Assembly: GCA_951406725.2 (NCBI GenBank)
Contig: OX597822.1
Span: 66,898,001 to 66,962,000 of the forward strand
DNA length: 64,000 bases
Direction: 5' to 3'
Source of the DNA: Octopus vulgaris
Taxonomy: Eukaryota
Shown piece after piece: positions 13,359-61,554 of the stretch; position 1 is the stretch's first letter; each line of letters starts with the position of its first letter. The position numbers and the translations under genes were made by a program. Under the pieces are notes generated by a model, which had not been told where the DNA came from, did not search any database, and was given only the letters and a program-made list of their open reading frames with translations.

Positions 13359-14173
13359 CGTATAAACACAGATACACATACACATATATATGTAATATGT
13401 ATGTGTGTAAGTATGTATATATGTATAAGATAAGTCTCTTTCTCTCTCTTCTTCATTCTATAAGAGAAATTGTGGGGAATTTTGTACAACAGTACCTGTC
13501 TTTTTATACCTCTTCATCAGCAGATTTCATGTTATTGTCAGAGAGAGATGTGGCGGTTGTATCTGAAAATAAATGTTTAACAATTCTTCTCAATTGAATG
13601 GCGAATAATTTATGCAAAGCGTTTATATCGATTGTTGCCTAATTTAAGAGCAAATAGCAGAATTAACGAACATGCAGACAATTCATGCAATCAGTCATAT
13701 ACATACACACATACACAAACAGAGAAAACCGCATATATACTGTACATTGCAGTGTGTAAGACGCACACTTATATATTTAACGAAGACAAAAAAGGATCGA
13801 AAAAAGAATCTTGAAAATTACCATACATCTTCTGCAATTTGGTTAAGGAGTTGTTGTTGTGATTTCTAAAGATTTGAAGAAGAAGAACATGTTTTTGACT
13901 GTTTTACTGGACATTATTTTTAGAGATTTACAGACTTTGTGATTTTTATTATGTACTTACATGAAATTTGAATATGTCTAAGTTTTTTCCAAATTTATAT
14001 TTTGACATTTACACTTTTTTTTTTACAAAATCAAAGTAAGCACTCATATACATATATACATTTGCTTATCTTCTGCTAATAAAGAATGTTATTCGCGTCG
14101 CCTTCATACAGATAAAGTGAAAAGACAGCAAAATTTAAACAGTGTTACCGTAAGATTCTTATTTTTTTTAAAG

Positions 14174-14590
14174 AAGGCGGTGAGCTGGCAAAAACGTTAG
14201 CACACCGGGCGAAATGCTTAGCGGTATTTCGTCTGCCGCTACGTTCTGAGTTCAAATTCCGCCGAGGTCGACTTTGCCTTTCATCCTTTCGGGGTCGATA
14301 AATTAAGTACCAGTTACGCACTGGGGTCGATATAATCGACTTAATCCGTTTGTTTGTCCTTGTTTGTCTTCTCTGTGTTTAGCCTCTTGTGGTTAGTAAA
14401 GAAATAGGTATTTCGTCTGCCACTACATTCTGAGTTCAAATTTCGCCGAGGTCGACTTTGCCTTTCATCCTTTCGGGGTCGATTAAATAAGTACCAGTTA
14501 GGCACTGGGGTCGATGCAATCGACTATATCCGTTTGTCTGTCCTTTTTTGTCCCCTCTGTGTGTAGCCCCTTGTGAGCAGTAAAGGAATA
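14174..14590 (+). mobile_element. SINE family 2 (Meta-domain-like) tandem dimer, tails A-A
   Basis: Head AAGGCGGTGAGCTGGCA, box B GAGTTCAAATTCC, core GCCTTTCATCCTTTCGGGGTCGATAAATTAAGTACCAG; second unit starts at 14407; ATTCTT-T-rich direct repeats flank. Confidence 0.9.
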
Positions 14591-14749
14591 ATATTCTTTT
14601 TTTTTTATTAGAAACTAGTGTTATATTAACGATTTTCATTTCTTTTACAGATGCTTTCTTAAAAATTGTGGTTATCCCAACCATAAGATGACAGCGGTTG
14701 GTTAAGTTCAAAACACACCGAACAGCAGTATCCAGCGGTAGGTAGTCAT

Positions 14750-16719: not shown

Positions 16720-17439
16720 GAATATACGTGTGTAGATGTATATGAATATATAATAACACTTCTTATCAACTCTTGACATCAGAGGTTAATCCAGCTTTGG
16801 TGTAAGTGAAATAATACCGTAGGTACAAATTGATTCTGAATATTAACAGCATACAAACATGAAATATCATGTCTGGTTTGTTTAAAATGTATTTCACTTG
16901 AAATCAACTGTATCATTTAATTTCATTATTCTGATCGCATCTATAATTCATAATTATTTCTTCGAAATTGAAATCAATCCACTCTTATGTACATACCTCT
17001 CTATTTAATTATTCATTTTTATGTTAGTCTCTGTACCTACTTCTGATTTATCCTGTTGTTAACCTTAGTGCGTAAATAATAATTCATATCATAGAACCAT
17101 TCTTTAATTGGCTACATAGAATAAATTCGAGTACATATTATGACTTAGTATCTTCACACGTTTTTTATCTCAAATAAATCCAGTTTTCCGAATGATATCT
17201 AGTAATAAAATACATCTTTCTTGAAGCATTTGGATATTTGAGTAAATTAGTCAATGCTCAAATTACTATGCCGTTTTTCTGTATAGTTATCTCCTTTCTA
17301 TGTTTTAAGTCGTACGCAAATTTTCAGAAGCCTTATGGTACATAACACAGCATTCTTGAAGATACGGTAATTTCATGTTCTTCAATCCATATTTTCGCAA
17401 ATCATGAAAACGCTAGGCCCTTCCTTGGACAAGTATTTG

Positions 17440-17660
17440 TTTCAACTTCTGGCAAAAGATCAGCAATTTCAGGGAAGCGGAGTAAGTCTATTAGATCGAC
17501 CCCAGTGTTTTACTGGTACCTAATTTATCGATCACGAAACGGTGAAAGGCAAAGTCGACCAAGGCAGAATTAGAACACAGGTAATGAAGACAGACGAAAA
17601 GTCGATAAACACTTTTCCCGATGCGGTAGCGAAATCACTAGATCGCTACATCTTGCCTTA
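17440..17660 (-). mobile_element. SINE family 2, old copy (tail C)
   Basis: GATCGACCCCAGT..CTGGTAC..TTTATCGA..GAAAGGCAAAGTCGACC. Confidence 0.75.
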
Positions 17661-17667
17661 TACCAGG

Positions 17668-18241
17668 ATTAAGTCGATTATATTGACTTCGGTTCTCAAT
17701 TACTCTTTTAATCTTTTATTTGTTTCAGTCGTTTGACTGCGGCCACGCTGGAGCACCACCTTTAATCGAGGAAATCGCCCCCAGGATTTATTTTTTTAAA
17801 GCCTAGTACTTATTCTATCGGTCTCTTTTGCCGAACCGCTAAGTTACGGGGACGTAAACACACCACCATTGGTTGTCAACTGATGTTGGAGGGGGGGGTG
17901 ACAAACACAGTCACACAAACACACACACATATATATACATAGACATATATACGACGGGCTTCTTTCTGTTTCCGTCTACCAAATCCACTCACAAGGCCTT
18001 GGTCGGCCCGAGGCTATAGTGGAAGACACTTACCCAAGGTGCCATGTAGTGCGACTGATCCTGGAACCATGCTACTTACCACACAACCACTCCTGCCACA
18101 GTCATTCGTAACTTATTTTATACACCCCGAATGAAATGCAAAGTCGAACTTGGCGGAATTTGAACTCAGAACGTAGCGACGGACAAAACGCCTCCAAGCA
18201 TTTCACCCAGCATGATGATGATTCTGTGTGCTCACCGCCTA
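17668..18241 (-). mobile_element. SINE family 2 copy interrupted by a full family-1 SINE (17700-18097, minus strand)
   Basis: Family-2 core split at ~17699/18100; the insert has the full family-1 structure with internal CA/TA repeat. Confidence 0.8.
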
Positions 18242-18819
18242 AAACTTTGCCCAAATATTGATTTATCATATTCGATTTCTGTGTTCAACACACTTTTGAG
18301 CTCCAAATTTAGCAGCCATTTGATGCTCTGAACACGATGTATTGAACACTATGGCAGAAAATATTTACAGGATATGCATTTCTATGCATTTCACAACATA
18401 TAATTTATTATGTATGTTTGTGTGTCAGTGCATATTCCTAGGTATGTGTGTGTATGTATCCGAACGCGGGTATAAAGAATGAGAGAATATAAAGGAGATT
18501 GATTTGGAATACTGGTTTTAAACATTTTCTATTTTTGTCAAATATTTTCCAAATTTTGTATAGACAAGATGTGTATGTACAGCTTATTGGAGGTTAAGTT
18601 TATGTGACGCTCTCAGGAATGCATCAATATTTTCTATAAGTTTTGCATAATTTTCCACAATATCTCTTTCACTGCTGTTAGCGAATTCTTCGATTAGTTT
18701 CGTGTGCTGGATGGGGAGCGCAATCGAATTATTATATATTCCGTGTTGATGATGTTACAGTAATCTAGATGTTTTGTATTTTTGTTTTCTTTTGTATTTA
18801 TCCATTACATATATATCAG

Positions 18820-19000
18820 TCATCCGGCTGCAGCAGCCATGCTGGAGTACTGTCACCAACAGTTCCTTTACTTTACTGAATCGACTCCAGTACTGATGTT
18901 GTGTTAAACCTTGTAGTTATTCTATCGGTCTCTTAGGGCCGAACCACACAGTCACAGGGACGTAAGCACATCAGCAACTGCTTGTCAAATGGCGGTGGAA
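18820..19000 (-). mobile_element. SINE family 1, diverged 3' half
   Basis: GCAGCCATGCTGGAGTAC...TTATTCTATCGGTCTC...GGGACGTAAGCACA. Confidence 0.65.
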
Positions 19001-19123
19001 ACAAACGTGGACGCATACCCACGGGGCTCGGGGTTATGGCAGGACACATTTGCTCATATTATCACAGCAAATCACGGAGACCAGATACTTGCAAATGACC
19101 TTCATAAACACAGATTTGTGTAT

Positions 19124-19179
<56 letters not shown>

Positions 19180-19187
19180 CCAGTAGA

Positions 19188-19530
19188 CGTGGCAAGGTGG
19201 CAAGTGTCTTGTATCACAGCCTCGGCACCACCAAAACCTTCTATGTGGATTTAGTAGTGGAAACTGAAGGCGCTCGCCATGCATGTGCGTGCGTGTGTGT
19301 GTGTGTTTACGTATGCATATGTGTCTGTGTGTGCCTTTGTTCCTCCTCCACCACCTCTTCACAACCACTGTTGGTGTGTTTTACCTTCTTGCTATTCAGC
19401 AGCGGCTCGGAAAGGGGTGAGCGATAAAAAATGAACTCGTTTTACAATAGAACTGCTAGTGTGAATTTCTTCCACTGAAATTCTACAATTCGTTATCCCA
19501 GTATAACCGCATTTTAATCACTAAACTAAA
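19188..19530 (+). mobile_element. SINE family 1, highly diverged copy
   Basis: GGCAAGTGTCTT..CAGCCTCGG..GTGGATTTAGTAG.GGAAACTGAAGG, internal (GT)n, GGTGTGTTTTAC. Confidence 0.55.
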
Positions 19531-19563
<33 letters not shown>

Positions 19564-19584
19564 GTATATACATACATGTGTGTA

Positions 19585-19800
19585 TATGTTTGTGTGTCTG
19601 TGTTTGTCCCCCCAACATCGGTTGACAACAAATACTGGTGTGTTTACGTCCCCGTAACATAGCGGTTCGGCAAAAGAAACCTATAAAACAAGTACTAGGC
19701 TTCCAAAGTATAAGTCCTGTGGTCGATTTGCTCAACTAAAGGCAGTGCTCCAGCATGGCTGCAGTCAAAATTACTGTAACAAATAAAAGAGAAAGAAAAA
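19585..19800 (+). mobile_element. SINE family 1, 3' half
   Basis: TGTCCCCCAACATCG..GGTGTGTTTACGTCCCCGTAAC..AGTACTAGGCTTCCAAAG..GCTCCAGCATGG. Confidence 0.85.
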
Positions 19801-22287: not shown

Positions 22288-22518
22288 AGATAAAACTTAC
22301 TTGGAAAAGGATGCGTGGCGTTTGATCATATGATGATATGAATAATATATAAATATATGCATATATACATACACATATGTACATACCTCCCTCTCTCTCA
22401 ATCCTCCTCCTCGACTCTCTCTTAGGTACGTACATATATGTATGTATATATGCATATATTTATATATTATCTATGTTATTATATGATCGAACGCCACGCA
22501 TCATTTTCCAAGTAAGTT

Positions 22519-22524
<6 letters not shown>
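22288..22524. mobile_element. Foldback/MITE-like element with ~100-bp inverted arms
   Basis: AGATAAAACTTACTTGGAAAAGGATGCGTGGCGTTTGATCATAT (22288-) is the near reverse complement of ATATGATCGAACGCCACGCATCATTTTCCAAGTAAGTTTTATCT (-22524); CT-rich ~35-nt loop. Confidence 0.8.
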
Positions 22525-26817: not shown

Positions 26818-27199
26818 ATCGATACTGAGTACTTGACTATGATTTGAACTCAGAACGTAAATAATCACAACTAAATACCGTAAAGCATTTTGTTCTTCGC
26901 TCAAAGATACTGGAAATCCACGAAGTAAAATACATTTTGGGATGTTGCACATGCATTTGTGATATAATGCATAAAAAAAACTACTCATCGCCTTTAGAAT
27001 AATTTCTTCTCCAAACCTATAAATCCATATCCTGGAATCAAATTAAGCAGAAATTCCCAAAGACATAAATAAATAAATCGATTTAAAAATAAATATAAGA
27101 GAGAAAGATCAAAGTGGAAATTCTTGAAATTCTTTATTAAGCTTTGCTAATTTTTCGCTTCTCACCTTTAATTTGATAATGGTTGAAAATTCTTTCATT

Positions 27200-28126: not shown

Positions 28127-28464
28127 TGCCATGTTGCGTAAAAGAAGGGAAGACTTTGATACCAACACAGACTTTGATACAAACACATATAAACTCCACA
28201 GGTGTCAAAATAACATCGTGAGTAACACGTTTTAAGTAACTGTAACCTACTGAACCAGTCTATTAACCTTTTTTCAAATATTAAGCTTGCTATGTAAATC
28301 TGTTAAATGCAATCCCATATTGTTTGTGATTTCTGGTCGCTTGAACATTTTTCACTAAAACTTAAACGACCGTAGAAAAAACACGTTGAAACCACCACTT
28401 CCAGTAAGAAATATAATTATAGTTACACTGAAGTTAGTTACAATACAATGACCAAAATAATTAC

Positions 28465-29047
28465 AAGGCGGCGAGCTGGCAGAGACGTTAGCACGCCGAG
28501 CGAAATGCGTAGCCGTATTTCGTTTGCCGTTACGTTCTGAGTTCAAATTCCGCCGAGGAGGACTTTGCCTTTCATCCTTCCGGGGTCGATTAAATAAGTA
28601 TCAGCTACGCACTGGGGTCGATGTAATCGACTTAATCCGTTTGTCTGTCCTTGTTTGTCCTCTCTGTGTTTAGCCCCTTGTGGGAAGTAAAGAAATAGGT
28701 ATTTCGTCTGCCGCTACGTTCTGGGTTCAAATTCCGCCGAGGTCGACTTTGCTTTTATCCTTTCGAAGTCGATTAAATAAGTACCAGTTACACACTGGGG
28801 TAGATATAATCGACTTAATCCGTCTGTCTGTCCTTGTTCGTCTCATCTGTGTTTAGCCCCTTGTGGGTAGTAAAGAAATAGATATTTCGTCTGCCGATAC
28901 TTTCTGAATTCAATTTCCGCCGAGATCGACTTTGCCTTTTATCCTTTCGAGGCCGATAAATTAAGTACCATTTGCATACTGGGGTCGATCTAACTGACTG
29001 ACCCCTTCCCTAAAAATTCAGACCATGTGCCTAAAGTAGAAAAGAAT
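28465..29047 (+). mobile_element. SINE family 2 trimer, tails A-A-B
   Basis: Single head at 28465; units restart at 28698 and 28881 after TAAAGAAATA; flanking AATGACCAA direct repeat. Confidence 0.9.
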
Positions 29048-30599
29048 GACCAATACGGGGATACATATTTTCAATAAAATGATTATAAGCGATTTGAAAA
29101 CTGATATCTGAAAAGCTAACATTAATAATATAACCAAAATGTGATTAATATAATGGTTCATTTAATAGACACAGCATACGTCAAGCAGAGAATATAAACA
29201 CCATACAAAAGGGGAAATTAGCTTACCCTTCAACTAAACATGGAAGTAATACAGTGTACTAAATTATATCTAATTATTTTATTCAGTATAACCATGAACT
29301 GAAAAAATGTGGCTGGCTCGGATTTCTACACTGTTATACATAGACTATAACATTGATTTTTGAACTGCGATATTATAGTCTTACGCTTACCGAGGTATTA
29401 AACCCAATAACCCTGAATATTTATGGCTAGTATTTAGTTATGTGACCTTCTTTCAATAGATTTTCTCCTTGTACAATGTACAATGGTAATATGTCAAAAT
29501 TATAACATTGCGTTTCCCAGAGAGACATTTGAACCCGTTTCATTTTACTGAAAGGTGACTTGTCTGGAGATGGTATTGGTTTATAATCGCAACACAACGT
29601 GACAACAAAATCTGTATTTTAAGCTACACAAAAGCAATAGGCATTTCTATTTACCATAAACAATTACGAAAATGTAGTCTCTTAGTCGTTGATATCTTTC
29701 CCCAAACTTTGTATCGTTTACATGTTGGCAAACTATGATGTCTAACACTAGACCATTTCATGTATTATGCTACATCTGTAGCATAATCTTGCAACAGGAT
29801 CTAAGCGCTCTTAAGCTGTAGGATCTTAATAGAAAATTTGCGGCCTTCCAAAATTAGCAATCCAAATTTTGTGAAGAATTGTATAAACTTAGTATGTCTA
29901 TTGATATGGTTATAGTAAGTTAGCAGCAGATGGACACTGATTGATCTGACTTGATCAAATAATTCAAATCTTGACAATCCTTTCTTTTTTTAATATCTCG
30001 TATTGGTTTTATTAGCGCTGCAGGGTGTGATCTGAAAGTAATTGCACGTTATCTCTAATAAGTTTAACGATCATGGAGAGGTACCCTCGTAAGCCTGAAA
30101 TTACGTAATTGGTATGTTAATTTCTAGTTGATGCTGATTATTCTATATTTAATCATGCTTTCCGGATGCGTTTATATCCGTATTCTTTTCTGGTATACAG
30201 TTTGATGTTTTATGTTATGTATATATATGTATATGGAAGAAGTCAATTCCCTATGGATAAGGTAGGAAGGAAGTTCTCAAGAATGATAGCATTTTCTATT
30301 ACCTGTATTGAGGCCCCATGTTTTGTCACTAACTTGATGCAATTGGATGTATTTCTGTACCATTATATCGTCCCTATCTTGTAGTACACGCTTGATGTAC
30401 AATGTGTACGCAATCTTCAATTCGAAACATGTCCGACATTACTGCTTGGCTTACGAAAGCTACAATCCGGAGTTTAATTATAAGAACCAGGTGTACAAAA
30501 TTCGAAGAAGAAAAAAAAACAAAGCAGCAAGAACAACATAAACAAAGGCAATAAATAACAGCGAGATCCCACATCGTAACATAATGTATTTATCACAAA

Positions 30600-33400: not shown

Positions 33401-34071
33401 ATATATGCGCATATGTATACAAAGTGAGATAGCGTGGGCTGTTGAATTAAAGCAAAAGATAAAACACTTAATGCAATACCCGGAATTTGGAGCACATACG
33501 CTTCTTATTCTGTGACATTTGCAACAAGAAAATCATTACTAACTACTCTACTTAAAATATCATATAGCATAACGATTGACAAGAAGTTACTCTGAACTGA
33601 AAACACCGCTCTCAAAGCCCCATGCATCTCCTATCATGTAATCATCTCTAGAGCATTGCTTAATTTTCTTTCGAACTCCAAATGACGGCTTACAAGCCCT
33701 CTTCAAAAGTGGATTGGACATATTTAATATACGTATTTTCACCGCCATTGATCTTAATATCAAAAGTGCGACTTGGAATGACCAATAGAAATGTAGTTCT
33801 ATTGAAGTCCTGTTACCTCAACATTGAAAAGTAGCCATCTGCAAATTCCTTCAAGTCAAAATTTACCAAACTATATCGTAATCGTTCCTTTTGGAAGTTC
33901 TACATGTGATAAATCTTCGGGACTATAATAAAGATAAACAATATGTACTAGAATTTCGCTGTTTATTCGTGACAATTTCATCTGTATGAAATAGGTGGGA
34001 CAACCTATTGCTCAAGGTCTTCCCTAAATTATATACCAGTGCAAATTCAATCGATCTCGTATCATATTTTA

Positions 34072-34104
<33 letters not shown>

Positions 34105-34145
34105 TGTCTTTCTCTTTCTCTTTCTTTCTTTTTCTCTCTCTCTCA

Positions 34146-34189
<44 letters not shown>

Positions 34190-34192
<3 letters not shown>

Positions 34193-34960
34193 CGGAAGGG
34201 AACCTATTCATTTTCTTAGTGACATACAAAGTCAATGGCCACGTAGTCTCGCAGAATATAAGCGGTTACACAATGAACAGGTTTCGAAAGAAATATTAGA
34301 TCTATTCAAAGGGCTCCTCTTCCATATAAGTATTTCCCCTAACTTAATCATAGTCCATTTCTTAGATATTACGTTAGACCTTAACGTAAATACGTAACAG
34401 TAGTAAAGGAATCAAACGAAGGCATGATATGTAATGTTATTACATACAGTCGTGATCATATCTGATAATAATGAATTTAGTAACAAGTTTATCTCCAACT
34501 CCACCCCTTATAACAAGATTTCTGACAAATTACACAACCCCTCTAATATACTGACTCTTTAGCGAAGTGTGTCTCCATGGAAAACATAGTTAATGGGTGA
34601 AACCCTGACTCACACCGGATTCAAAGAGAATCAGGAACTGGAAAATATTGTATAATAATTCCAAATATATACTCACATAATTAAAGCACTGCTGCAAGTA
34701 TAGCTATGAAATTTTGTTTTACAAGATAGATACTTTCTAATTACACATGAATATCAGAGGCCCTTCAATGTGCATAATTTACGCTACAACAATCACTCAC
34801 TGCAATTCAAATCATATATCTCGGCACAATAGTAGAATTTTGCTAAAATCGAACCATTTCCGGACTAAGCCTGTTCTGCTTTCCGAAAGACGATGTGCAA
34901 TGACTTACAATCACTCCATCACATAACATACAGGTAGATTACAAAGAAATTACTACCTCT
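34190..34960 (+). mobile_element. Penelope-like RT plus GIY-YIG remnant
   Basis: KEILDLFKGLLFHISISPNLIIVHFLDITLDLN (~KxIxxFKxxGLxITIxxNxxxVNFLDVTxNL), later ENIVY and RYNNH endonuclease words. Confidence 0.7.
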
Positions 34961-37908: not shown

Positions 37909-38106
37909 CATTATAAGGAAAATAAGACAAAGTAGAAAATGCTAAAATAATTTTATCATGAAGAACATTTTAGTGCCGGTTTCAGTATTTCCGACGATCG
38001 CAAAGACTGAAAACGTTAATAAAATGTTTTCTATGATAAAATTATTTTACCACTTCCTACCTTGATTTACTACATATCAACTCGTGCATTCCTCTTCAAA
38101 CTTCTA

Positions 38107-39236: not shown

Positions 39237-39399
39237 TATTTGCGAAGAGAGATCATTGTTCCCATCTCTAGCCTTACGGGATACACACTGACACAGCTTT
39301 CTGGGTAGTAAACCGTCATCAGTGTTACTATTCAGAAACGCGGGTCGATGTCTATCACGTAAGGCTAGAGATGGGAACGATGATTTCCTTTCGCAAATA
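39237..39399. repeat. 163-nt near-perfect inverted repeat (foldback/MITE or hairpin RNA)
   Basis: TATTTGCGAAGAGAGATCATTGTTCCCATCTCTAGCCTTACG pairs with CGTAAGGCTAGAGATGGGAACGATGATTTCCTTTCGCAAATA; inner stem TTTCTGGGTAGTAA/TTACTATTCAGAAA. Confidence 0.9.
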
Positions 39400-44237: not shown

Positions 44238-45842
44238 AAGGCGGTGAGCTGGCAGAAGCGCTAGCGCGCCAGGCGAAATGCTTAGCGGTATTTTGTCTTT
44301 CGCTACGTTCTGAGTTCAAATTCCGCCGAGGTCAACTTTGCCTTTCATCCTTTCGGAGTCGATTAAATAAGTACCAGTTACGCACGGGGGTCGATATAAT
44401 CGACTTAATCCGTTTGTCTGTCCTTCTGTGTAGTCCCTTGTGGGTAGTAAAGAAATAGGTATTTCGTCTGTCGTTACGTTGTGAGTTCAAATTCCGCCGA
44501 GGCCGACTTTGCCTTTCATCCTTTCGCGGTCGATAAATTAAGTACCAGTTACGCACTGGGGTCGATGTAATCGACTTAATACCTATGTCTGTCCTTGTTT
44601 GTCCCCTCTATGTTCAGCCCCTTGTGGGTAATAAAGAAATAGGTATTTCATCCGCCGCTACGTTCTGAGTTCAAATTCCGCCGAAGTCAAATTTGTCTTT
44701 CATCCTTTCGTAGTCGATTAAATAAGTACCAGTTACACACTGGGGTCGACATAATCGACTTAATCCGTTTGTCTGTCCTTGTTTGTCCTCTGTATTTAGC
44801 CTCTTGTGCGTAGTAAAGAAATAGGTATTTCGCCCGTCGCTAGTTCAAATTCCGCCGAGGTTGACTTTGTCTGTCCTTGGTTGTAACCTCTATATTTAGC
44901 CCATTGTGGGCAATAAAAAAATAAGAATCTTTAGCGCGCTGTTTGAAATACTTAGCGGTATTTCGCCCGTCGCTACGTTGTGTTCAAATTCCACTGAGGT
45001 CAACTTTGTCTTTCTTCATTTCGGGTTCGATAAAATAAGTAACAGTTAAACACTTGGGTCGATGTAATCGGCTCATCCCCACCTCCGCAAAGCTTCTCTT
45101 TTGGCAAAAATTTGAAATAATTATTAGGAATCAATATTTAAGGCTGCATGTTGACAGAATTGTGAGCACGCCGGACGAAATTCTTAGTGGCATTATTCCC
45201 CATTTACGTTCTGAGTTCAAATTCCGTTGAGATCAAATTTTTCTTCCTTGGTCGATGTGGAGGCACATTGCCTAGTGGTTAGAGCAGCAAACTCACGGTC
45301 GAGGGATCGAGGGAGGGTTCGAATCTCAGACTGGGCGATGTGTGTTTTTATGAGCGGAACACCTAAGCTCTACGAGGTTCCAGTAGAAGGTAATGGCAAA
45401 CTTCTGCTGACTCTTTCGCCACAACTTTCTTTCATTCTTTCCTCCTGCATCTTGCAGCTCACCTGCGACGGAACGGCGTCCCGTTCAGGTGGGGAACCTA
45501 TACGCCAAAGTAACCAGGCGTGGCTCGAGAAGGAACATCATTATTCTTGGTCGATAAAATAAGAACCAGTTTAGCACTGATGGCGATGTAATCAACTTGG
45601 CCTCATCTCCGAAATTGCTGTCCTTTTGTCGAAATTTGAAACCGTTAATAGAAATCAGCATAAGTGCGAACTGACAGGATCGTCATCAGTTAGCGGCATT
45701 TCGTCCGTCTTTTCGTCCTCAGTTCAAATATATCCCAGATCGTTTTTGCCTTTCATTCTTTCTGGCTCTATCAAATAAATACCAGTGGCGCACTTACTCC
45801 GCCCCCAAAATTGATGGCGCTGTGCCGAAATTTGAAACCAAT
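44238..45842 (+). mobile_element. SINE family 2 stack of ~7 units (A,A,A,partial A,C,C,C)
   Basis: Units restart at 44458, 44642, 44824, 44924, ~45139 and ~45661; divergence increases 5' to 3'. Confidence 0.88.
45258..45537 (+). mobile_element. SINE family 3 nested in a family-2 unit
   Basis: GGAGGCACATTGCCTAGTGGTTAGAGC..GGTTCGAATCTC; host sequence TTCTT..TGGTCGAT repeated on both sides. Confidence 0.85.
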
Positions 45843-46169
45843 ATTAGAAAATGGGAAATCATGCATTTTTTTTATTCGTTTCCTTCTCCCTGTCTTTTTC
45901 ACCATGAAAGAAGGAATTTTTTCCAGAAACGTGAGTGGGGATTGACATATGCCTGTTTTTCAGACAAAAGCGATGGAAATATGTGCCATGTCGCTAAGAA
46001 CGAGGGTAAAACTAGAAGCAAGTGAACTAGTCGAGACTCATAAGACCAAAAGATACTGATATAACTATTGACTCTTGGATTGTCATCATCATTACGATAC
46101 AGCGGATACTGGTATGACCTATGTAGGACGGACCTACATATTTTGATTAAGTCATTTTTGTATTATCTT

Positions 46170-46470: not shown

Positions 46471-47925
46471 AAAACTGGACATTTATTACGAGTTTACTGA
46501 CTGTTATCTCTCTCTCTTGTATGAATATAAGAGGAATTAGTCCTTTAAGATTTGCTAATGTCTTCATCGCATGTTACTATACAGTCGCTTAACCGTCAAG
46601 CCTTGCCGCAAGGAATATATAAGTAAACAGCAGAGATTACTTTACCACTTTTTAGTAAAAATTTCAGCTAGTCAAGAATATGTTTTTCTCACCAAATTAG
46701 TATTGTTGTGACACAGTGAGACTCACACATCGGCAGATAATAACGTCACCACTCTCACGGTGACCACAATGAAAACGGAAGCGAATTTATGTAGGCGTTT
46801 TTCGTGAGACACGTTTCACCACAGCCCATTTTCTTACCAAGCTGTAATCAAGGGCGATGCGCAGACTGATATTCGCTGCGTGGCATCTATAAAGTTGGCA
46901 GCGAATCAGACTAAAAATTTGACAAATATTAATACCATGCTTTCCGGAGATCAAATATTTGCGGTGTCCGTATAATATGCGTAAGTAGCGTACGTTTTAA
47001 ATCTAATGAAGCTGAGGAAAGTTTATTGCTAACGGAAATACTAACATTCACCAAGAAATCACACGATTACCTCCCTTTATAGTGTTATTTTTAAGTTCAT
47101 CGTTTCTAATCTTACAACACAAACCTTTACATTTTTTTTTTGTTTTTCGGGGTTTTATTTTTCTCTCAGAAATAGTCATGTTCACCGGCTCCATGATTAT
47201 TAATTTCCGACTAGATAAACATAATTGCCGTCCCTATCAAACACATCTGGATGTTATATGAACCAGCGCATGTACCACTGTAGGGAAGAAATTATGCTTG
47301 GTTAAAGCCATCATTACTGATGGCTTCTGATACAGCAATTAGTGAAGGTTTCCAAATATGTTGTTATTTACTTGGCTAACACAGCTATCAGTTATCTTAT
47401 CTCACAGTCGCTGGCAGGCATTTACAGATACGCCATATCATATTAATGATACCGTTTGTAAACATTGTATACCTGTATGCACACATCAACAAGGACACAC
47501 ATACACATAGTATAACACAAATATATATCCATGCACGAGCAAATATGCAAAAATATATACAAATACGAACACATGTTCAGATTTACATATATATACGCTA
47601 CTATATATAGAGTCTTCCATTTCTTCGGTTTCATTTTTCATAGTGAAAATGTCATATCTCACTCTAAGAAATAAGTTTTAAAATGAGAACGACAGCTTTC
47701 CCAGTGACAATTAAATTTAGAACGCTGAGAATTGCAATTTTTCACTGTAAGACATTCTGTTTAGTTATAGAAAGTAAGGTTATTTTGAAGTATATTAGTA
47801 CTGAAGGGCAGTTTCATATGGAGTGTGGTCATGAACTATTGTGAAACCAATGTTTCAGATTCACATACATATACGGATATATCTGAAGGAATGTACCGTT
47901 CCATATTGTATGCGTTTGCGTTTGT

Positions 47926-48362
47926 AAGGCGGCGAGCTGACAGAAGCGTAGGCACGCCAGGCGAAATGCTTAGCTGTATTTCGTCTGTCTTTACGTTCTG
48001 AGTTCAAATTCCGCCGAGATCGACTTTAGCTTTCTCCATTTCGAGGTCGATAAATTAAATGCCAGTTTCGTATTTGGGTCGATCAAATCGACTGGCCCGC
48101 TCCCCCAAAATTTCGGGCCCTGTGCCTAAAGTACGAAATATTATTGTATGTGTTTGAGTTTGTAAGGCGGCGAGCTGGCAGTATCGCTAGCACGCTGGAC
48201 GAAATGCTAAGCGGTATTTCGTCTGCCGCTACGTTTTGGGTTCAAATACCGCCGTGGTCGAATTTGCCTTTCATCATTTCGAGGTCAAAGACATAAGTAC
48301 CGTCTCATGTAAATGATTCATCTCCACCACCCCTAAGCTGTCCTGTGGCCAAAAATTAAAAT
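47926..48362 (+). mobile_element. SINE family 2 pair (tail B then tail C) separated by a duplicated 22-bp target
   Basis: TATTGTATG(C/T)GTTTG(C/A)GTTTGT precedes both heads (47904-47925, 48142-48163). Confidence 0.9.
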
Positions 48363-48509
48363 AATTATTATGTGTAGGCATGTGTTTGAATCTAAATAAC
48401 ATTATACGCATCTAAATTTATAAGTACAAATTAAGTGTATAGTTCTCTCTGTGGATAACATTTTGCATGCAGGCACATATGTGTATGTGAGTGCATGTGT
48501 ATATATATG

Positions 48510-49284: not shown

Positions 49285-49629
49285 GTCTGCGTGTGTGTAT
49301 GTGCATGCATGTATGAACATACATGTGTGCTCATGCTTATATAGGACGAATGATATGCATATTTATTCGCGATTTGAAAATCACAGTTTACGGTAGATAT
49401 TTGTACAAATGAATGTGTCGCTTGTGTAAATATATAATAGAAGGAGATTAATCTTCACACAGCTTCCTTACTCAGAGTAAACATTAATTCCCTTAACACA
49501 TGAATAATTCTAATCAAACAATGGCAAATTCTATCTCGAAACTAATTATCGCAAAATTAATTGGTTAACCTCATGTTTCCAATTAGTATACTAGTATTCG
49601 AATAATCTGTGCGTGAATAATAATTAATT

Positions 49630-50998
49630 GTTTCTGATTTAGGCTCGATGCCAGCAAATTTGAAGCGAGAGGGTTATTTGATACCATCGACTACAGTACG
49701 TGTTAGGTACTATATATTATTGACCCTGAAAGAATGAAACAAAATACTGACGTCAGTGGGATTTGAACTCGGGTCATAAAGGTCCAGACAGAAATACGTC
49801 AAAACATATCTTCAGATGATCAAGCGAATTTGAAAGCTCGCGCTATTTGGGTGATTAATAAATAATGGCTTAAAATATTGACATATGGCCAAAAGTCTTT
49901 GCCGAGAGAGAGAGAGTGCGGTTCATTACATCGTCAACAGTTTTAGACTTCTACTTATTTTGTCGACCTCGAAAGAATGAAAGGCAAATTAGAATTCGGT
50001 GAAATTTGAACCCAGAACGAATAGACGGACGAAATGCCGTTATGCATTTTACCGAGCGTGCAAACGTTTCTGCTGACTATTAAATAATATTTTCTACTCT
50101 ATACACAAGGCCTGAAATTTTAGAGAAGAGTCTAGTTGATTATATCGACCCAAGTACTCAACTACCACATATTTTATCGATTCCGAAAGAATAAGGGGCA
50201 AGGTCGACTCCGGTGGTCGAACGGAAAAACAGGCGAAATGACACAATGAATTCTGCTACACCCTGTAACAATTCTTCCTGCACGTCATTCACTGATTAAT
50301 AAATATTCTTTTCTACTCTAGACACAAGGCCCCAAATTTTGGGGGCGGGTGCTTGTCGATTATTTAATCCCAGTACGCAACTGGTTCTTAATTTATCGAC
50401 CCCGAAAGGAAGAAAGGCAAAGTCGACCTCGGCGGAATTTGAACTCAGCCCCTAACGGCAAACGAAATACTGCTAAGCATTTCGCTCGACATGCTAAAGT
50501 TTCTTATTTCTTTATTGCTCACAAAGGGCTAAACAAAGAGGGGTCAAACAAGGAAAGACAAACAGATTAAGCCGATTACATCTACCCCAGTGCGTAACTG
50601 GTACTTAATTTATCGACTCCGAACGGATGAAAGGCTAAGTCGACCTCGTCGGAATTTGAACTCAGAACGTAACAGCAGACGAAATACTAAGCATTTCGCC
50701 CGGCGTGCTAATGTTTCTGCCAGCTCGCCAACTTATGATTAATGAATATTTATTTCTTTATTGCCCACAGGGGGCTCAACATAGAGTGGACAAACAAGGA
50801 CAGACAAATGGATTAAGTCGATTACACTAACCCCAGTGCGTAACTGGTACTTATTTAATCGATCCCGAAGGATGAATGGCAAAGTCGACATAGGCGTAAT
50901 TTGAACTCAGAACGTAACGGCAGACGAAATACTGCTAAGCATTTCGCCCAGTGTGCTAAAATCTGTGCCAGCTCGCGGCCCTACGATTAATAAATATT
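49630..50998 (-). mobile_element. SINE family 2 stack of six units (from head side A,A,B,B,C,C)
   Basis: Units ~50750-50982, 50504-50732, 50306-50503, 50090-50290, 49867-50073, 49630-49843, mostly separated by GATTAATAAATATT-like spacers. Confidence 0.88.
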
Positions 50999-51554
50999 AG
51001 ACGTATACTTGTGTGTCTTTGCATACATCTTGCTTTAGTTTTGCTTAAGGCAAGGTCTATACTGGATTACCGCGTTTCACGATGTTTTTTTAAATTCTGG
51101 TTTTCACTTCAAACATGCTCATATCTAACAGGCCAGTAATGTTCCTTACTTTATAAATGCACGTCGCATCGCTAATTGGTGGGCACATCAAAGAGTTGTT
51201 AGATGCTCTTCTGCGGTATTTGAACCGTTTTGCTATGATTTTGATATAAAGAATGTGAACATCTAGGAGGCTACTAATTTTCTTTACTTTATTAGTGAAC
51301 ATGCCATCGTTAGTTGATGGATCAAAAGAGTTGTTAGAAGTTGTTCTGCTTTAGTTGAATCGCTGTTCAGATGGTTGGATGCATACCTCCGTAAGAAATG
51401 TATGTCTCTGCCTCCTAAATGTCTAATGCAAAATTTTGGTCACGTTTTATCGTACTGTATGTATTCTGTGGTAAAAATGAGGATGTTTCAAATGTAAATA
51501 TAACATTATATGTTCCTTATGAGCGTAGCTTAGAGAATGTGGAAAGGGTTTTCA

Positions 51555-51905
51555 ATGTGGATATGGGGTAAGATGTTTACTTCCCATCCACATGGTTCCG
51601 GGTTCATTCCCCTGCGACCATAGCTTCGTATCGACCTCGGCGTTGCGAGTAAATGTGGTTGACGGAAAAGGAAATAACGCCGAGTATATATATATGTGTG
51701 TGTGTGTGTGTTCATCCCTACCTTTGTTTGCCAACAGGTCTTTCTTTGTTTACGTCCATGTAACATAGCGGTTCAACAAAAAAACATTCCTATAGATTAA
51801 GTAGCAGGCTTTAACAATATTTGTATTAGGCAGTATTTCTTCGAGTAAACCTTCATAGGCAGCACTCCAGCATGGCCATAGTTCAATGACTGAAAAAAGT
51901 AAAAT
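51555..51905 (+). mobile_element. SINE family 1, diverged full copy
   Basis: CACATGGTTCCGGGTTCATTCCC..internal TA/TG..GTTTACGTCC..CTCCAGCATGGCC. Confidence 0.75.
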
Positions 51906-52471
51906 TCACTTCCCCATTCTTCTTATCTAGAATAATACATGAATACATACATACAAACACACACACGCACACACACAAACACACACACACATACACAAAC
52001 ACAAACACAAACACACGCACATGCACAAGCGCATATATGACGCCATCATTTTTTCCTACTTTCGTTCCAAACAGTAGAAATTCAATCCGTGAAAACGCTG
52101 CAAACTTTTAAGCTTTCCGATTAAGCTGATTGCACTTGATGCATTTTTTGCTAATCTAATCCTGCATTGCAAAAAACAAAAACTTTGTTTGCTATAATAG
52201 CATAGATTTAGTGCTACATTCTAAATCAAGTGATTATCAGATTTAACGCCGTTGTCTGATCTTTGGTTGCGACACCAGTGCCTGTTCTGGTACAGATTTT
52301 CTATATATTCTTAGCGGGGAGATGAGTCGCTGCTATCTCTAGCGGTCGAAGGTCCATCACCGACGTGATCAAAAGAGCTCGAAATCTCGTGATCTGGTGG
52401 TCTCGGCGCTGGAGTTGATGGGGATTTATCTTCCCGCTGCATTCTGCACCAAAAACCTATATGAGAGTTTC

Positions 52472-52697
52472 TTATTTCTTCATTGCCCACAAGGGGCTAC
52501 ACAGAGAGGGGACAAACAGGGACAGACAAACGGATTAAGTCGATTATATCGACCCCAGTGCGTAACTGGTACTTATTTAATCGACCATGAAAGGCAAAGT
52601 CGACCTCGGCGGAATTTGAACTCAGAACGTAGCGGGAGACGAAATACCGCTAAGCATTTCGCCCGACACGCTAACGCTTCTGCCAGCGCGCCGCCTT
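52472..52697 (-). mobile_element. SINE family 2 single young copy (tail A) with target-site duplication
   Basis: CCTATATGAGA(G/A)TTTCT present on both sides (~52456-52472 and 52698-52714). Confidence 0.9.
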
Positions 52698-52749
52698 CCT
52701 ATATGAGAATTTCTGACACGGTATATACTGTAGTATATACCGTGTTCTA

Positions 52750-54680
52750 ACAGAACAACCATGTTAATGTGAGAATACATACAAGCTCTCGGTATTAATG
52801 CTGCCTCTGTCGCCAACATACGTTCCTCACTTTCAGTATCTCCCAGCCTCTTATGTTGCAGTTTGGGTGTCGTACCCGTTGCGCCAACTACCATAGTAAC
52901 AATTGTCCCCTCAGTCTTCCATATTGTTTCCACGTCTCCAGCTAGGTTCCGATACCCCTTCAGCTTCTTCCTTTTTCTCTCATGTTCAGTATATAATCAT
53001 ACAGCATTGCAATGTCTATGATCGTACACTTTCTGTTTTATATTTCTCTTCAACAATTCATATATCTTCTTGCTTCTGCGGAATGGTCAGTCTTTATGAA
53101 GACATAAATATAATTCTGAAATTATTATTCATCATCGAAGACTCTAGATCATATTCATACCATTCTCGGACAGTTTTAAATCAATCATTTGTCTAATTTC
53201 CCTGAATACATACTTACCGACACAGTCATTCCTTTGCTTGTATTCACTTTGTGCTAGCTTACATCATTCACTTAAGAGACGGTTACTACGTTTGTCTCCA
53301 TTTTCAAAGATTCCGTATCTCACTAATCAAATTCGTTCTTCTATTTTCTCTCCTATCGGCTATAATTAGCTATTTAGTTTTTCTTTGAGGTTTTCATTTG
53401 TGAACTAAAACCAGCGCTATTTGCTACTAGCATCAAATGATCAACAATCCCTTCAATTTGCTTTATGAATTGGCTATGTAATCCCTTGTCTTTCCAGCTA
53501 TTTGTCAAATCCTTCTTCAATTCAATTCCTATTTCACTAACATTTTGGTAATTCATAGTCGCAGATAATTTTCTCTCTTCATAATATATAAATAATTTCC
53601 AAATCCATTATATCAGTATTAATGGTATATTCCTCGATTAAAAATCTTCCGATACCTGCTTTCATTGGTATTTAGAGCTTAATTATGTTCCTTTAAGAGT
53701 GGTGCTCGTTGTGAAAAGTGAGCAGCTTCCTCGTACGTCTAATTCCTGTAATTTGGTCATTGTCCATTTTGGAAAAGCAGCAGAGTGTCTTAATGTTGAT
53801 ATGGCCGTTGTATACATTGCCTAATTAATATTCTCTCAAGTTAGTTGCTCCGGCTTTTTTCCGAATTCATCTAACGTTTCGAGTTTTTCTCATTTCTCGT
53901 TACCTTACTCAATCATCCTGTAGAACTTCTAGCTACATGTATGACTTGCATCCTTCACTATTTCTCAACGATCTCATAACATCTGATGGTAATTTTATAC
54001 CATCAGATTTAATGTTGAGTCTTCTCTTCATAAATGAGGCTGCATATTTATTTCCTCCAAACAGCAGGCCGATGCCCTTACTAAATATTCTTACTCACAG
54101 CTTCCTTTTCGTTGTTCCTATACTCTCTGAAATCATATATATAAATATAGGAGGTGATTTATTTTCATTCGCGTTTTCGTAATGGCAGAGGCAAGCCTGT
54201 ATTTTCTTAGTCTTCTTGTTAGAAAAATGAATGCAATGACGAAAAGTAATGTAGAAAGCACGATTAACTGGAATGAAACTCATGGGAATTTTCACATTTC
54301 CTAATGCATTTCTGCAGTTTATTTCTACTTCCTGCAATCTTCTCATTGACTCCTTCTGTCATCAATCAGCGCAAGAGCCAGCAGTGTAGAACACTACTGC
54401 AGGCTTTCTTGTAATCTTATCCAACCAATAGCTAAATATTTCTTTCTTATTCCTATTCAATGCATACTCTCTCATTACTCTGCTACTTGTTTCAGTCATT
54501 TGTCTGCGACCATGCTGGAGCACCGCCTTTAGTCGAGGAAATCGGCCCCAGGACTTATTCTTTGGAAGCCTAGTACTTATTCTATCGGTCTCTTTTTCCG
54601 AACCACTAGATTACGGTGACGTAAACACACCAGCATCGGTTGTCAAGCGATGTTGTGGGGAGAAACATAGACACACATAA

Positions 54681-59137: not shown

Positions 59138-59141
<4 letters not shown>

Positions 59142-59364
59142 TTTTATTCTTTTACTTGTTTCAGTCATATGTCTGCGGTCATGCTGGAGCACGCCTTTGA
59201 TCGAGCAAATGGAGTCCAGAACTTATTCCTTGTATGCCTAGTACTTATTCTATCGGACACTTTTGCCGAAGCGCTAAGTTTCAGGGACGTAAACACAACA
59301 GCATCTGTTGTGAAGCGATGTTAGGGTGACAAACACAGACACACAAACATATACACACACATGC

Positions 59365-59404
<40 letters not shown>

Positions 59405-59597
59405 ATGCATGTATGTGTATTTATATACATATATACGACAGGCTTGTTTCAGTTTCCGTCTACCAAATCCACTCACAAGGCTTTGGTCAGCCTGAGGCTA
59501 TAGTAGAAGACACTCGCTCAATGTGTCAGCAGTGGGACTGAACACGGAACCATTGGGTTGGTAAGCAAGCTACTTAGCACACAGTCACTCCTGCGCC

Positions 59598-59600
<3 letters not shown>
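59138..59600 (-). mobile_element. SINE family 1, full length
   Basis: Collinear with 21038-21428. Confidence 0.9.
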
Positions 59601-59634
<34 letters not shown>

Positions 59635-59639
59635 GTGTG

Positions 59640-59832
59640 TGTTTGTCCTCCCACCATCGCTTGAAAACTGACGTTGGTGTGTTTACGTCCCCGTAAATTA
59701 GCGGTTCGTCAAATAGATTCAGATAGAATAAGTACTAGGCCTGCAAAGAATAAGTCCTGGGATCGATGTGTTCGACTAAAGGCGGTGCTCCAGCATGACC
59801 ACTGTCGAAATGACTCAAACAAATAAAAGAAT
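59640..59832 (+). mobile_element. SINE family 1, 3' half, inverted relative to its neighbour
   Basis: GGTGTGTTTACGTCCCCGTAA..AATAAGTACTAGGC..GCGGTGCTCCAGCATG. Confidence 0.85.
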
Positions 59833-61554
59833 TAACGAATAAGCATCAGGTACCAGTTCATCGCAGATTAAGGATATATAAGGATATATCAGGTTTCTTT
59901 CTTTACTTTAGTATACATCCGCAAGTATCCCGGTCCTGACAGGTCAAGAAGTTCCCAAGTTTATTGTTTGTATGTGTGAATGTATAGGTACACCACGAGA
60001 AAGGAATTTCCTCGTAATAGGCACAGAAGTATACGGGAGCTTACTTCTACAAGCACAGAAGTTTGTGTGATGAAGCGGCATTATAAGGAATAAGTGCCCG
60101 CCTCTGCACATATTAATTGGATGCAGTAGTTAAGTGTTATTAAGCATCTGTGTGTGGGGGTGGAGGTGGGCAAAACATAAGGAAATGGAGGGGGAGATTA
60201 GATGCAATAAATGTATAACAGAAAATAATTTATTATAAACATTTCCATACACACAAAAATGAAATACTTATATGGAGTGAGTTGTGAATATTTTCTTGAT
60301 AATATTGAAATAATGAATACATTTATACACATATTTGCGTGTACACGCACACACACACAGATATATGTATGTCTATACATATTTATAGTTATATTATTAT
60401 TTATATACATTCACACATGCATGCTTATACATGTATATATATTATATGGACTTATGTATGTATGTACACATATGCACTACTTTTTCTGGTTGTCTGAGCA
60501 TGAAGGAAAATATCGGTGAAAATTAAGTATCGATTAATCAATGAATGAACGGTCAGTACAAGTGATTGAAATTGTACCTTTATCAGTGCATATCAACATT
60601 TATTAAAGATAAATACACGTTGCTGGTAACATACATACAACATTGAATGAAATAGACACAAGCTATAATTTCTGCTGGTTTGCCTGATTACCGTAAGCCT
60701 GCGGCATACCTGTACATTTGCATTCCAACACATATTATCATCTGTCTTGTAGGCTCGCAGCGTGATGCTTGCTGTGAGTCAGTGTGACGGCGTTCATGAG
60801 TGTTAAATAGGGTAAATCAGTCTAGAAACTGAACACGCGAGTTATATGCAAGAATAAACTCAAACATGAATAAATGTATACGAAAAAACCTTCGCAGAAA
60901 CGTTCACACACAAACTCGAACATAGAAACATAAATATACACGCACAACTCTTCAACATACAGAAAGGGTAATGCATCGATATTGATTTACATACAGAGGA
61001 ACGCCCATATAATTTTCAATCTAGCGTTCGAATCTACATTTTCCCTCTGTCACTATCGACCTTTGCCCCGTCAATACTTAAGCGTCTTTTTAGACTATAT
61101 CTATTTTCCTACCTGCAATACTTGTGCAGTATTTTGTCAGCTCTTGCTTAATCTAAATAAAATAATAATTTTATCATATAGATAGATACACACACGAACA
61201 CATTTAAGTACATACACATACATATAAGCTGATCCTGTATATTAGTATATGGATATAGATAGAGATGGTTGTGGTGTGGCCACTGGTACGATGCATTGGC
61301 AATTTCGATGATTCATAGCACCTTCCTTTCAATCGACCATTTTGTTATTTTCAGGTATGCAACATTGGGAGAAATAATCAAAACTGAGAATAGATATTTT
61401 CTACGCAGTATTAACATGTATTTACGTATAGTGTTAAAAATGAAACAGGATATACTTCGAATCTAGGTGAGTATACAGCACTGATAAGCGGCAGAGACAG
61501 CGAAATATCCATCAATAACAGTCATCCTGCGTAATACACAGGCACGCACACACG

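What the first reader, a model, noticed from the sequence alone, without database searches (positions are those of the whole stretch)
49630..50998. Polarised SINE stack with repeated target spacer: a chronological insertion record
Seen: six same-orientation family-2 SINEs, with a GATTAATAAATATT-like word recurring between or around them (~49853, 50075, 50294, 50737, 50985). Tail types from the head side run A,A,B,B,C,C, and both units and spacers look more decayed away from the head side. Inference: each new copy inserted just upstream of, or into the head of, the previous one and re-duplicated the target. Unequal crossing-over would instead give like-aged neighbours. The architecture is loosely CRISPR-like (polar addition between duplicated repeats). 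Established: site-specific RLE non-LTR elements such as R2/R4/Dong can build tandem arrays. I do not know this as a described property of these SINEs.
Basis: partly seen in the sequence, partly recalled or inferred. Interest (0 to 1): 0.8.

Follow-up and report, generated by a model that had tools for sequence, protein, structure and literature searches.

The report
SINE stacks grown at old heads
Six copies of one short retrotransposon sit head-to-tail here, younger-looking at the head end and separated by a repeated local 14-base word, likely because new copies keep landing just in front of, or inside, the head of an older copy, which would make such stacks a rough record of insertion order.

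Summary
Six same-strand SINE copies lie on the minus strand, head end at 50998. A 14-base word occurs 4 times with at most one mismatch, all inside the stack. Divergence rises from head to tail end (11, 7, 13, 34, 25, 35%). Neighbours are not each other's closest relatives, which argues against local duplication.

It is a family trait: 16 of 27 family pieces in the window abut a same-strand neighbour, none an opposite-strand one (0.24 expected). The gradient repeats in four other stacks (p=0.0005). Each stack has its own repeated word. Eight junctions have no spacer and enter an older head at position 18 or 51, sorted by tail subtype. These forms recur in contigs of related organisms.

Corrections: the order is only partly chronological, spacer decay is not monotonic, one 'C' tail cannot be typed, and no shared target sequence supports site-specific R2/R4/Dong targeting.

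Likely mechanism: repeated target-primed insertion, completed by pairing with the old head. Target-site triplication and tandem SINE arrays are known; mixed-age polarised stacks at this frequency were not found in ten searches. Verdict: new variant of a known kind.

The parts
50985..50998 (-). Outermost (head-side) copy of the locus-specific 14-base target word; keeps the native upstream flank
50751..50984 (-). Unit 6: full head, core, tail type A (A2 subtype); core divergence 19/166
50737..50750 (-). Target word copy, 13/14
50505..50735 (-). Unit 5: full head, core, tail A (A2); 12/164; joined without spacer to unit 4
50308..50504 (-). Unit 4: begins at about head position 18, tail B; 19/150
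50294..50307 (-). Target word copy, 14/14
50092..50292 (-). Unit 3: badly decayed head (24/50), tail B; 53/157
50075..50091 (-). Weak target word copy (11/14); may instead be the AT-rich end of a B tail
49867..50074 (-). Unit 2: first ~13 head bases missing, tail unassignable; 38/155
49853..49866 (-). Target word copy, 13/14
49629..49850 (-). Unit 1, likely founder: weakly C/B-like tail; 58/167
49615..49628 (-). Possible innermost target copy (11/14, p 0.14 against background)
44238..45846 (+). Second stack, seven units (A, A51, A51, A51-deleted, C2 from position 18, C, C) with its own spacer word
47904..48370 (+). Third stack (B, C2) with a 22-base target word repeated before both heads
28447..29055 (+). 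Stack A, A51, B52 inside one short direct repeat
14153..14610 (+). Dimer A, A51 inside one direct repeat
17425..18244 (-). Two-unit stack; head-side unit (34/162) split by a family-1 SINE, tail-side unit C (47/167)
52452..52714 (-). Solo young A2 copy with a 16/17 target duplication (control for a single insertion)

Best explanation
The stack is six head-to-tail copies of one SINE family of unequal divergence, likely laid down by separate retrotransposition events that each landed just upstream of, or inside, the head of an older copy, probably because pairing of the new cDNA with that old head helps the insertion finish. Shown: same orientation, repeated locus-specific word, age trend, independence of neighbours, two fixed spacer-less entry points (head positions 18 and 51) sorted by tail subtype, recurrence across the window and in contigs of related organisms. 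Inferred: a partner LINE nicks the bottom strand at a loosely preferred AT-rich site and copies the SINE RNA from its tail. If the nick lies a short way 5' of an old head or inside it, the freed top strand carries old head sequence that matches the end of the new cDNA and primes the second strand. A nick at the left edge of the old target duplication gives word-new-word-old. A nick inside the head gives a seamless new unit followed by a 5'-shortened old one. A nick on the tail side, or in the other orientation, has no such match, which explains the polarity. Interior heads stay usable, so the order is only partly chronological.
For: 16 same-strand and 0 opposite-strand tail-to-head adjacencies among 27 family pieces; null mean 0.24, maximum 4 in 100,000 uniform placements. 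37 of 41 within-stack pairs are older toward the tail, p 4e-5; p 5e-4 without this stack; non-CpG sites net 28 of 42, p 7e-4. Within-type core divergence A 0.127, B 0.289, C 0.369, independent of any consensus. No excess of private variants between neighbours; neighbouring A units in three stacks carry different linked core variants. The repeated word is specific to each locus and, at the clear junctions, runs to within a few bases of the old head. All 6 A tails joined at position 51 lack the C that all 5 other A tails carry at one tail site (Fisher p 0.002, noticed post hoc). In one related organism's contigs the loose end at that head position is the same tail subtype (341 contigs); A-tail-to-position-18 joints appear in all 3 contig runs and B-tail-to-head joints in 12, 8 and 8 contigs. 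Unit 6 shares two rare head variants with unit 4, as a copied old head would. Completion through an existing copy is on record for 6 of 226 new Alu inserts (PMC3415434, passage).
Against: The specific prediction of copied old heads is not significant: same-stack excess of rare shared variants p 0.07-0.25 over nine settings. The higher divergence of unit 6's head (10/50 against 9/116) is echoed in a solo copy (5/50 against 4/109). 4 of 15 adjacent pairs run old-to-young. The word between units 2 and 1 is better kept (13/14) than 20-25% decay per copy predicts (p 0.02-0.006), though AT-rich sites may decay more slowly. No unit was seen gained or lost between organisms, and no contig spans the stack. 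The partner LINE is unidentified: no tail matched the one LINE-like remnant in the window. The window was picked for this feature and the placement null is uniform. Position-51 units could have arrived together from multimer source copies.
Confidence: 0.5

Rival explanations
1. Plain re-use of a hot nick site. The upstream copy of the target duplication keeps its native left flank, so a site-preferring endonuclease (possibly R4/Dong type) cuts it again in the same orientation; homology plays no part.
For: Word copies start at the same base each time. Sequence upstream of heads is AT-rich in contig loose ends. Identical-site re-use with target triplication is described for mammalian SINEs and snoRNA retrocopies (PMC1687206, passages). 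Dong-R4 is active in Octopus vulgaris (PMC13282606).
Against: Targets at nine loci share only a short AT-rich start, and a pyrimidine-AATA word occurs once per 252 bases of either strand, too common to give re-use in about half of insertions. It does not explain eight spacer-less entries inside heads or their sorting by tail subtype.
Confidence: 0.2
2. Tethering by the RNA polymerase III machinery bound at old SINE heads, as for TRE5-A or Ty3 at tRNA genes.
For: All entries lie within about 25 bases upstream to 51 bases inside the head. Young heads fold as tRNA-Arg-like in 3 of 4 copies at a relaxed ARAGORN threshold. One never-revisited old copy lacks the B-box region.
Against: TRE5-A faces the tRNA gene with its 5' end and lands about 47 bases upstream (PMC5391098, passages); here the 3' end faces the head. 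Unit 3 has lost its B-box region yet was revisited. No factor binding data.
Confidence: 0.12
3. Co-insertion: multimer source copies or reverse-transcriptase jumps between RNAs put several units down at once.
For: The position-51 and position-18 junctions are recurrent forms tied to tail subtypes; two such stacks lie inside a single direct repeat. The young A tail ends in a hexamer complementary to the start of the position-51 unit.
Against: Cannot place a locus-specific word between units (three clear copies here, one 22-mer at 47904-48163). Unit order and core variants differ between the three position-51 stacks. Units within stacks differ widely in divergence.
Confidence: 0.1
4. DNA-level unequal recombination between target duplications or between copies, with later ectopic conversion of tails, as proposed for bivalve arrays.
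For: The same two layouts, TSD-(SINE-TSD)n and TSD-(SINE)n-TSD, are described in the blood clam and linked there to unequal recombination (PMC11481361, passages). One neighbour pair at 44825-45128 shares five non-consensus bases.
Against: The bivalve arrays are of highly similar copies; here neighbours differ by 15-44% in the core, have different tails and show no excess of private variants. It gives no reason for polarity.
Confidence: 0.08

Closest known systems
Target-site triplication and tandem insertion of mammalian SINEs (PMC1687206, passages; El-Sawy and Deininger 2005 and Lee et al. 2015 seen only as cited references; their content is recalled)
   Same: A second retroposon inserts at the very site of the first and the target appears three times; ascribed to consecutive events at a site that is 'somehow marked'.
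   Different: Described there as occasional pairs. Here 16 of 27 pieces in a window are joined, stacks reach seven units, growth is on the head side only, and fixed entry points lie inside the head.
Tandem HCD-SINE arrays of the clam Scapharca broughtonii (PMC11481361, passages)
   Same: Mollusc tRNA-SINE multimers with both layouts: separated by the same target duplication, or 5'-truncated units inside one duplication.
   Different: Those are highly similar copies, about 3% of SINEs, with 23% of structures palindromic, and linked to unequal recombination. These are mixed-age, mixed-tail, polarised and all same-strand.
Alu insertions completed by recombination with a resident Alu (PMC3415434, passage)
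   Same: A new insertion finishes through homology with an existing copy, leaving a chimera and no flanking direct repeat at that junction.
   Different: 6 of 226 inserts there, often with deletions; here it would be a main route that adds a unit and keeps the old one.
SINE-derived satellites of squamates (PMC10702118, passages)
   Same: Tandem units made of part of a SINE, with distinct leading and trailing monomers; the 184-base units here look like short versions.
   Different: Those reach hundreds of units and approach concerted evolution; these stacks are short, heterogeneous and age-ordered.
TRE5-A of Dictyostelium (PMC5391098, passages) and site-specific RLE elements (PMC4640811, passages)
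   Same: Repeated, orientation-fixed insertion beside a Pol III-type head or at one target, making tandems.
   Different: TRE5-A has the opposite orientation and a ~47-base offset; RLE elements share a target sequence across loci, which these loci do not.

Membership tests
tRNA-derived SINE | Short interspersed repeat in at least 100 copies | tested here: met
   29 profile hits in the window; 183,000-402,000 contig records laid per run in three related organisms
tRNA-derived SINE | tRNA-related head | tested here: inconclusive
   No tRNA at default ARAGORN or Rfam; tRNA-Arg-like in 3 of 4 young heads at a relaxed threshold
tRNA-derived SINE | Variable target-site duplications | tested here: met
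   16/17 at the solo copy, 20/22 at 47904-48163, others weaker
tRNA-derived SINE | Tail shared with a partner LINE | tested here: inconclusive
   No tail matched the single LINE-like remnant or any non-SINE place in the window; no genome held
tRNA-derived SINE | Pol III transcription | not testable with these tools
   No RNA holder listed
Deu/Nin-domain SINE superfamily (octopus tRNA-Deu) | Central domain homologous to Deu/Nin | not testable with these tools
   Likeness is recalled; no reference sequence was found in readable supplements
Target-site triplication | Same target word before, between and after independent elements | tested here: met
   4 clear and 2 weak copies around units with different tails
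Bivalve TSD-(SINE-TSD)n arrays | Highly similar copies truncated at the same tail position | tested here: not met
   Neighbours differ at 15-44% of core sites and in tail type
SINE-derived satellite | Several like middle monomers from local amplification | tested here: not met
   No excess of private variants between neighbours, p 0.38
Site-specific RLE tandem arrays (R2/R4/Dong) | Target sequence shared across loci | tested here: not met
   Nine upstream words share only a short AT-rich start
Site-specific RLE tandem arrays (R2/R4/Dong) | Mobilised by an RLE-encoding LINE | not testable with these tools
   Partner unknown; a decayed RLE-like remnant lies at about 52750-54400 but no link was shown
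TRE5-type Pol III-tethered insertion | 5' end faces the Pol III gene, about 47 bases upstream | tested here: not met
   3' end faces the old head, 0-25 bases upstream or inside it

The most novel reading that the evidence does not exclude
A very abundant SINE family, probably of octopods, homes to itself: about half of its insertions use an older family member's head as landing and completion site, and one subfamily carries a 3' end matched to a fixed point in that head and spreads only inside its own kin. The genome would then hold many thousands of polarised, datable stacks, a self-made safe harbour for a non-autonomous element.
Probability: 0.3. Interest if true: 0.72.

Novelty: new variant of a known kind. 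Interest (0 to 1): 0.48.

Why it matters
If true, a non-autonomous retroelement can steer much of its own insertion load into earlier copies by homology, a route known only as a rare event for Alu. It would give a direct genomic test of how the 5' junction of target-primed reverse transcription is formed. It would give an internal clock for ordering SINE subfamilies and tail swaps. It also offers a different origin for tandem SINE arrays now ascribed to unequal recombination. It has no evident host function, and the building blocks are known.

Tried and rejected
No genome is held, so no genome-wide count was possible. Six pattern scans of viral, metagenome and prokaryote contigs found 0 loci. 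Earlier-findings look-ups by place, sequence and words were empty. Rfam gave only a chance-level bacterial sRNA match. The raw-read run laid only 18 reads, none 95% alike or better, and was uninformative. Orthologous contigs of organisms B (about 2% apart) and C (about 9%) cover both ends but none spans the stack; 64 unaligned bases upstream of unit 3 in organism C could not be read; no gain or loss shown. Rolling-circle copying of one RNA was rejected because neighbouring 184-base units carry different core variants. Local duplication was rejected. The test for copied old heads was not significant. The core tree was poorly resolved and used only to see that stack-mates do not group. The LINE-like remnant gave no Pfam hit and no word-index homologue; a full scan gave 9 unnamed or hypothetical proteins; its 3' region matches no tail. 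The fragments at 26842 and 40008 were left out of all divergence tests, and the split unit at 17660-18244 was left out but included.

Full report
Observation. The stretch 49615-50998 holds six copies of one repeat family, all on the minus strand, so the head side is the high-coordinate end. Each has a shared head and core of about 170 bases and a variable tail. A 14-base word at 50985-50998 recurs at 50737 (13/14), 50294 (14/14) and 49853 (13/14), and weakly at 50078 and 49615 (11/14). With at most one mismatch it occurs 4 times in the window, all inside the stack. Units 5 and 4 join with no spacer, unit 4 starting near head position 18. Tails run A, A, B, B, unassignable, weakly C/B-like; B and C tails are related, A is distinct, and a fourth subtype (C2) appears elsewhere in the window. 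Core divergence from the head side is 19/166, 12/164, 19/150, 53/157, 38/155, 58/167 (exact trend p 0.028). The spacers do not decay in order.

What the element is. It behaves as a tRNA-head SINE: 29 profile hits in the window, clear target duplications at young copies, and 183,000-402,000 contig records laid per run in three related organisms. The tRNA link is weak by tool: nothing at default settings, tRNA-Arg-like in 3 of 4 young heads at a relaxed threshold. That the host is an octopod and the core a Deu/Nin domain is my recall and was not tested. It fits reports that tRNA-Core and tRNA-Deu dominate octopus SINEs (PMC8967140, passages) and that O. vulgaris has a SINE burst at distance 0.065 and 60.9 Mb of tRNA-Deu (PMC13282606, first third of the text, passages and supplement passages). 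Supplements that I could not read may hold the reference sequences.

It is a family trait. Of 27 family pieces, 16 abut a same-strand neighbour tail-to-head within 40 bases and none an opposite-strand one; uniform placement gives 0.24 on average and at most 4 in 100,000 trials (two interrupted copies were each counted as one piece). Five other stacks exist: 14174 (A, A), 28465 (A, A, B), 44238 (A, A, A, A, C2, C, C), 47925 (B, C2) and 18244 (split unit, C). Across five stacks 37 of 41 pairs are more diverged toward the tail (p 4e-5; p 5e-4 without the finding's stack); on non-CpG sites with the sixth stack, net 28 of 42 (p 7e-4). Mean within-type core distance is A 0.127, B 0.289, C 0.369, so the age order does not rest on the A-rich consensus. 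The other abundant SINE of the window shows, among about 14 real pieces, one same-strand and two opposite-strand contacts, all at TA-rich microsatellites.

Neighbours are independent. They differ at 25/163, 22/147, 52/140, 54/145 and 68/155 core sites. Variants private to two units fall on neighbours 6 times against 5.0 expected (p 0.38). Adjacent A units in three stacks carry different linked core variants. This argues against local duplication, unequal crossing-over between the words, and rolling-circle copying of one RNA.

Two junction types. In the first, a locus-specific word lies before both heads: the 14-mer here, a 20/22 match at 47904-48163, a weaker word in the 44238 stack. The words differ between loci and share only a short AT-rich start. 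AT-rich tails give some cross-matches between stacks, so the weak copies are uncertain. In the second type, an A tail joins straight into a head, six times at position 51-52 (the 184-base tandems) and twice at position 18. All 6 tails joined at 51 lack a C that all 5 other A tails have (p 0.002, post hoc). Contigs of related organisms, laid at 80% likeness and so mostly paralogues, show the same forms: a loose end at the position-51 site whose consensus is that tail subtype (341 contigs in one run; 20 of 4,457 loose ends were listed), A-tail-to-position-18 joints in all three contig runs, and B-tail-to-head joints in 12, 8 and 8 contigs (15 of 4,157 joints listed). These show recurrence, not frequency.

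Mechanism. I take serial, independent retrotransposition on the head side as well supported (about 0.85). For its cause I commit to homology-assisted completion (0.5 overall). In target-primed reverse transcription (established knowledge) the bottom-strand nick fixes the 3' junction and the freed top strand must prime on the cDNA. If the nick lies just 5' of an old head or within it, that top strand carries head sequence matching the cDNA end. One geometry then gives both junction types, the fixed orientation, the absence of tail-side growth and words that end at the old head. Direct support is thin: unit 6 shares two rare head variants with unit 4, but the pooled test is not significant (p 0.07-0.25). 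A consequence is that unit 6 may predate unit 5, which entered an interior head; 4 of 15 adjacent pairs are inverted, so the record is a partial order. Rivals are plain hot-site re-use (0.2), Pol III tethering (0.12), co-insertion from multimers (0.1, most likely for the position-51 runs) and DNA recombination (0.08).

Orthologues. Organism B contigs cover 49400-50121, 50160-50325 and 50933-51600 at about 2% difference; organism C covers 49400-50118, 50090-50286 and 50951-51600 at 9-13%. In both, the right flank runs into a family head.

Partner. A decayed open-frame remnant at about 52750-54400 has motifs that I recall as reverse-transcriptase and restriction-like-endonuclease ends of R4/Dong type. 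Pfam gave nothing, and its 9 relatives are unnamed or hypothetical. No SINE tail matches its 3' region. The partner stays unknown.

Comparison with what is known. Target-site triplication by consecutive insertions is described in mammals (PMC1687206, passages), and tandem Alu insertion is cited as common (PMC3415434 and PMC12840619, passages; the source papers were not seen). Completion through a resident Alu was seen in 6 of 226 new inserts. Both layouts found here are described in a clam, for highly similar copies and linked to unequal recombination (PMC11481361, passages). Squamate SINE satellites (PMC10702118, passages), TRE5-A (PMC5391098, passages) and RLE elements (PMC4640811, passages) differ as listed. 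Passages of PMC4758252, PMC9115989, PMC5804259, PMC4824008 and PMC3531059 gave background only. Ten searches of open-access text turned up no account of mixed-age polarised SINE stacks or of fixed head entry points in octopus; one search returned 0 papers. Subscription journals and repeat databases were not searched.

Verdict. The feature is real, non-random and family-wide. It is a new variant of a known kind, interest 0.48. The most novel reading, a SINE that homes to its own heads as a main route, has probability 0.3 and interest 0.72 if true.

Noticed in passing
window 52750-54400 (-): Decayed LINE-like reading-frame remnants with motifs recalled as RT C-terminus and restriction-like endonuclease (R4/Dong-like); a young solo family SINE sits about 50 bases past the end.
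   Followed up: partly
window 14407-14414, 28698-28705, 44458-44465: At position-51 junctions the last six tail bases are the reverse complement of six bases just after the junction; the entry point lies beside the loop of a head hairpin in the predicted fold.
   Followed up: partly
window 44924-45128 and 48163-48370: A fourth tail subtype (C2) shared by two copies, about 16% diverged, between B and C in apparent age.
   Followed up: partly
window 17703-18096 and 45262-45542: Copies of two other SINE families inserted inside family-2 units, giving nested age constraints.
   Followed up: no
window 59140-59835 and 18797-19795: Family-1 SINE pieces back to back or in series at TA-rich microsatellites, a different targeting habit from family 2.
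   Followed up: partly
window 50092-50292: Unit 3 has a head about 48% diverged but a well-kept B tail, possibly a chimera; it also differs more from its match in organism C (25/197) than the flanks do.
   Followed up: partly
window 33990-34397 (+): Short frame ending in a motif recalled as Penelope-like reverse transcriptase; no Pfam hit.
   Followed up: partly
window 22288-22524, 37928-38064, 39237-39399: Self-matching segments in the all-against-all comparison that look like palindromic elements.
   Followed up: no
window 51123-51362: Two diverged copies of a ~100-base unit, 135 bases apart, in the flank beside the stack.
   Followed up: no
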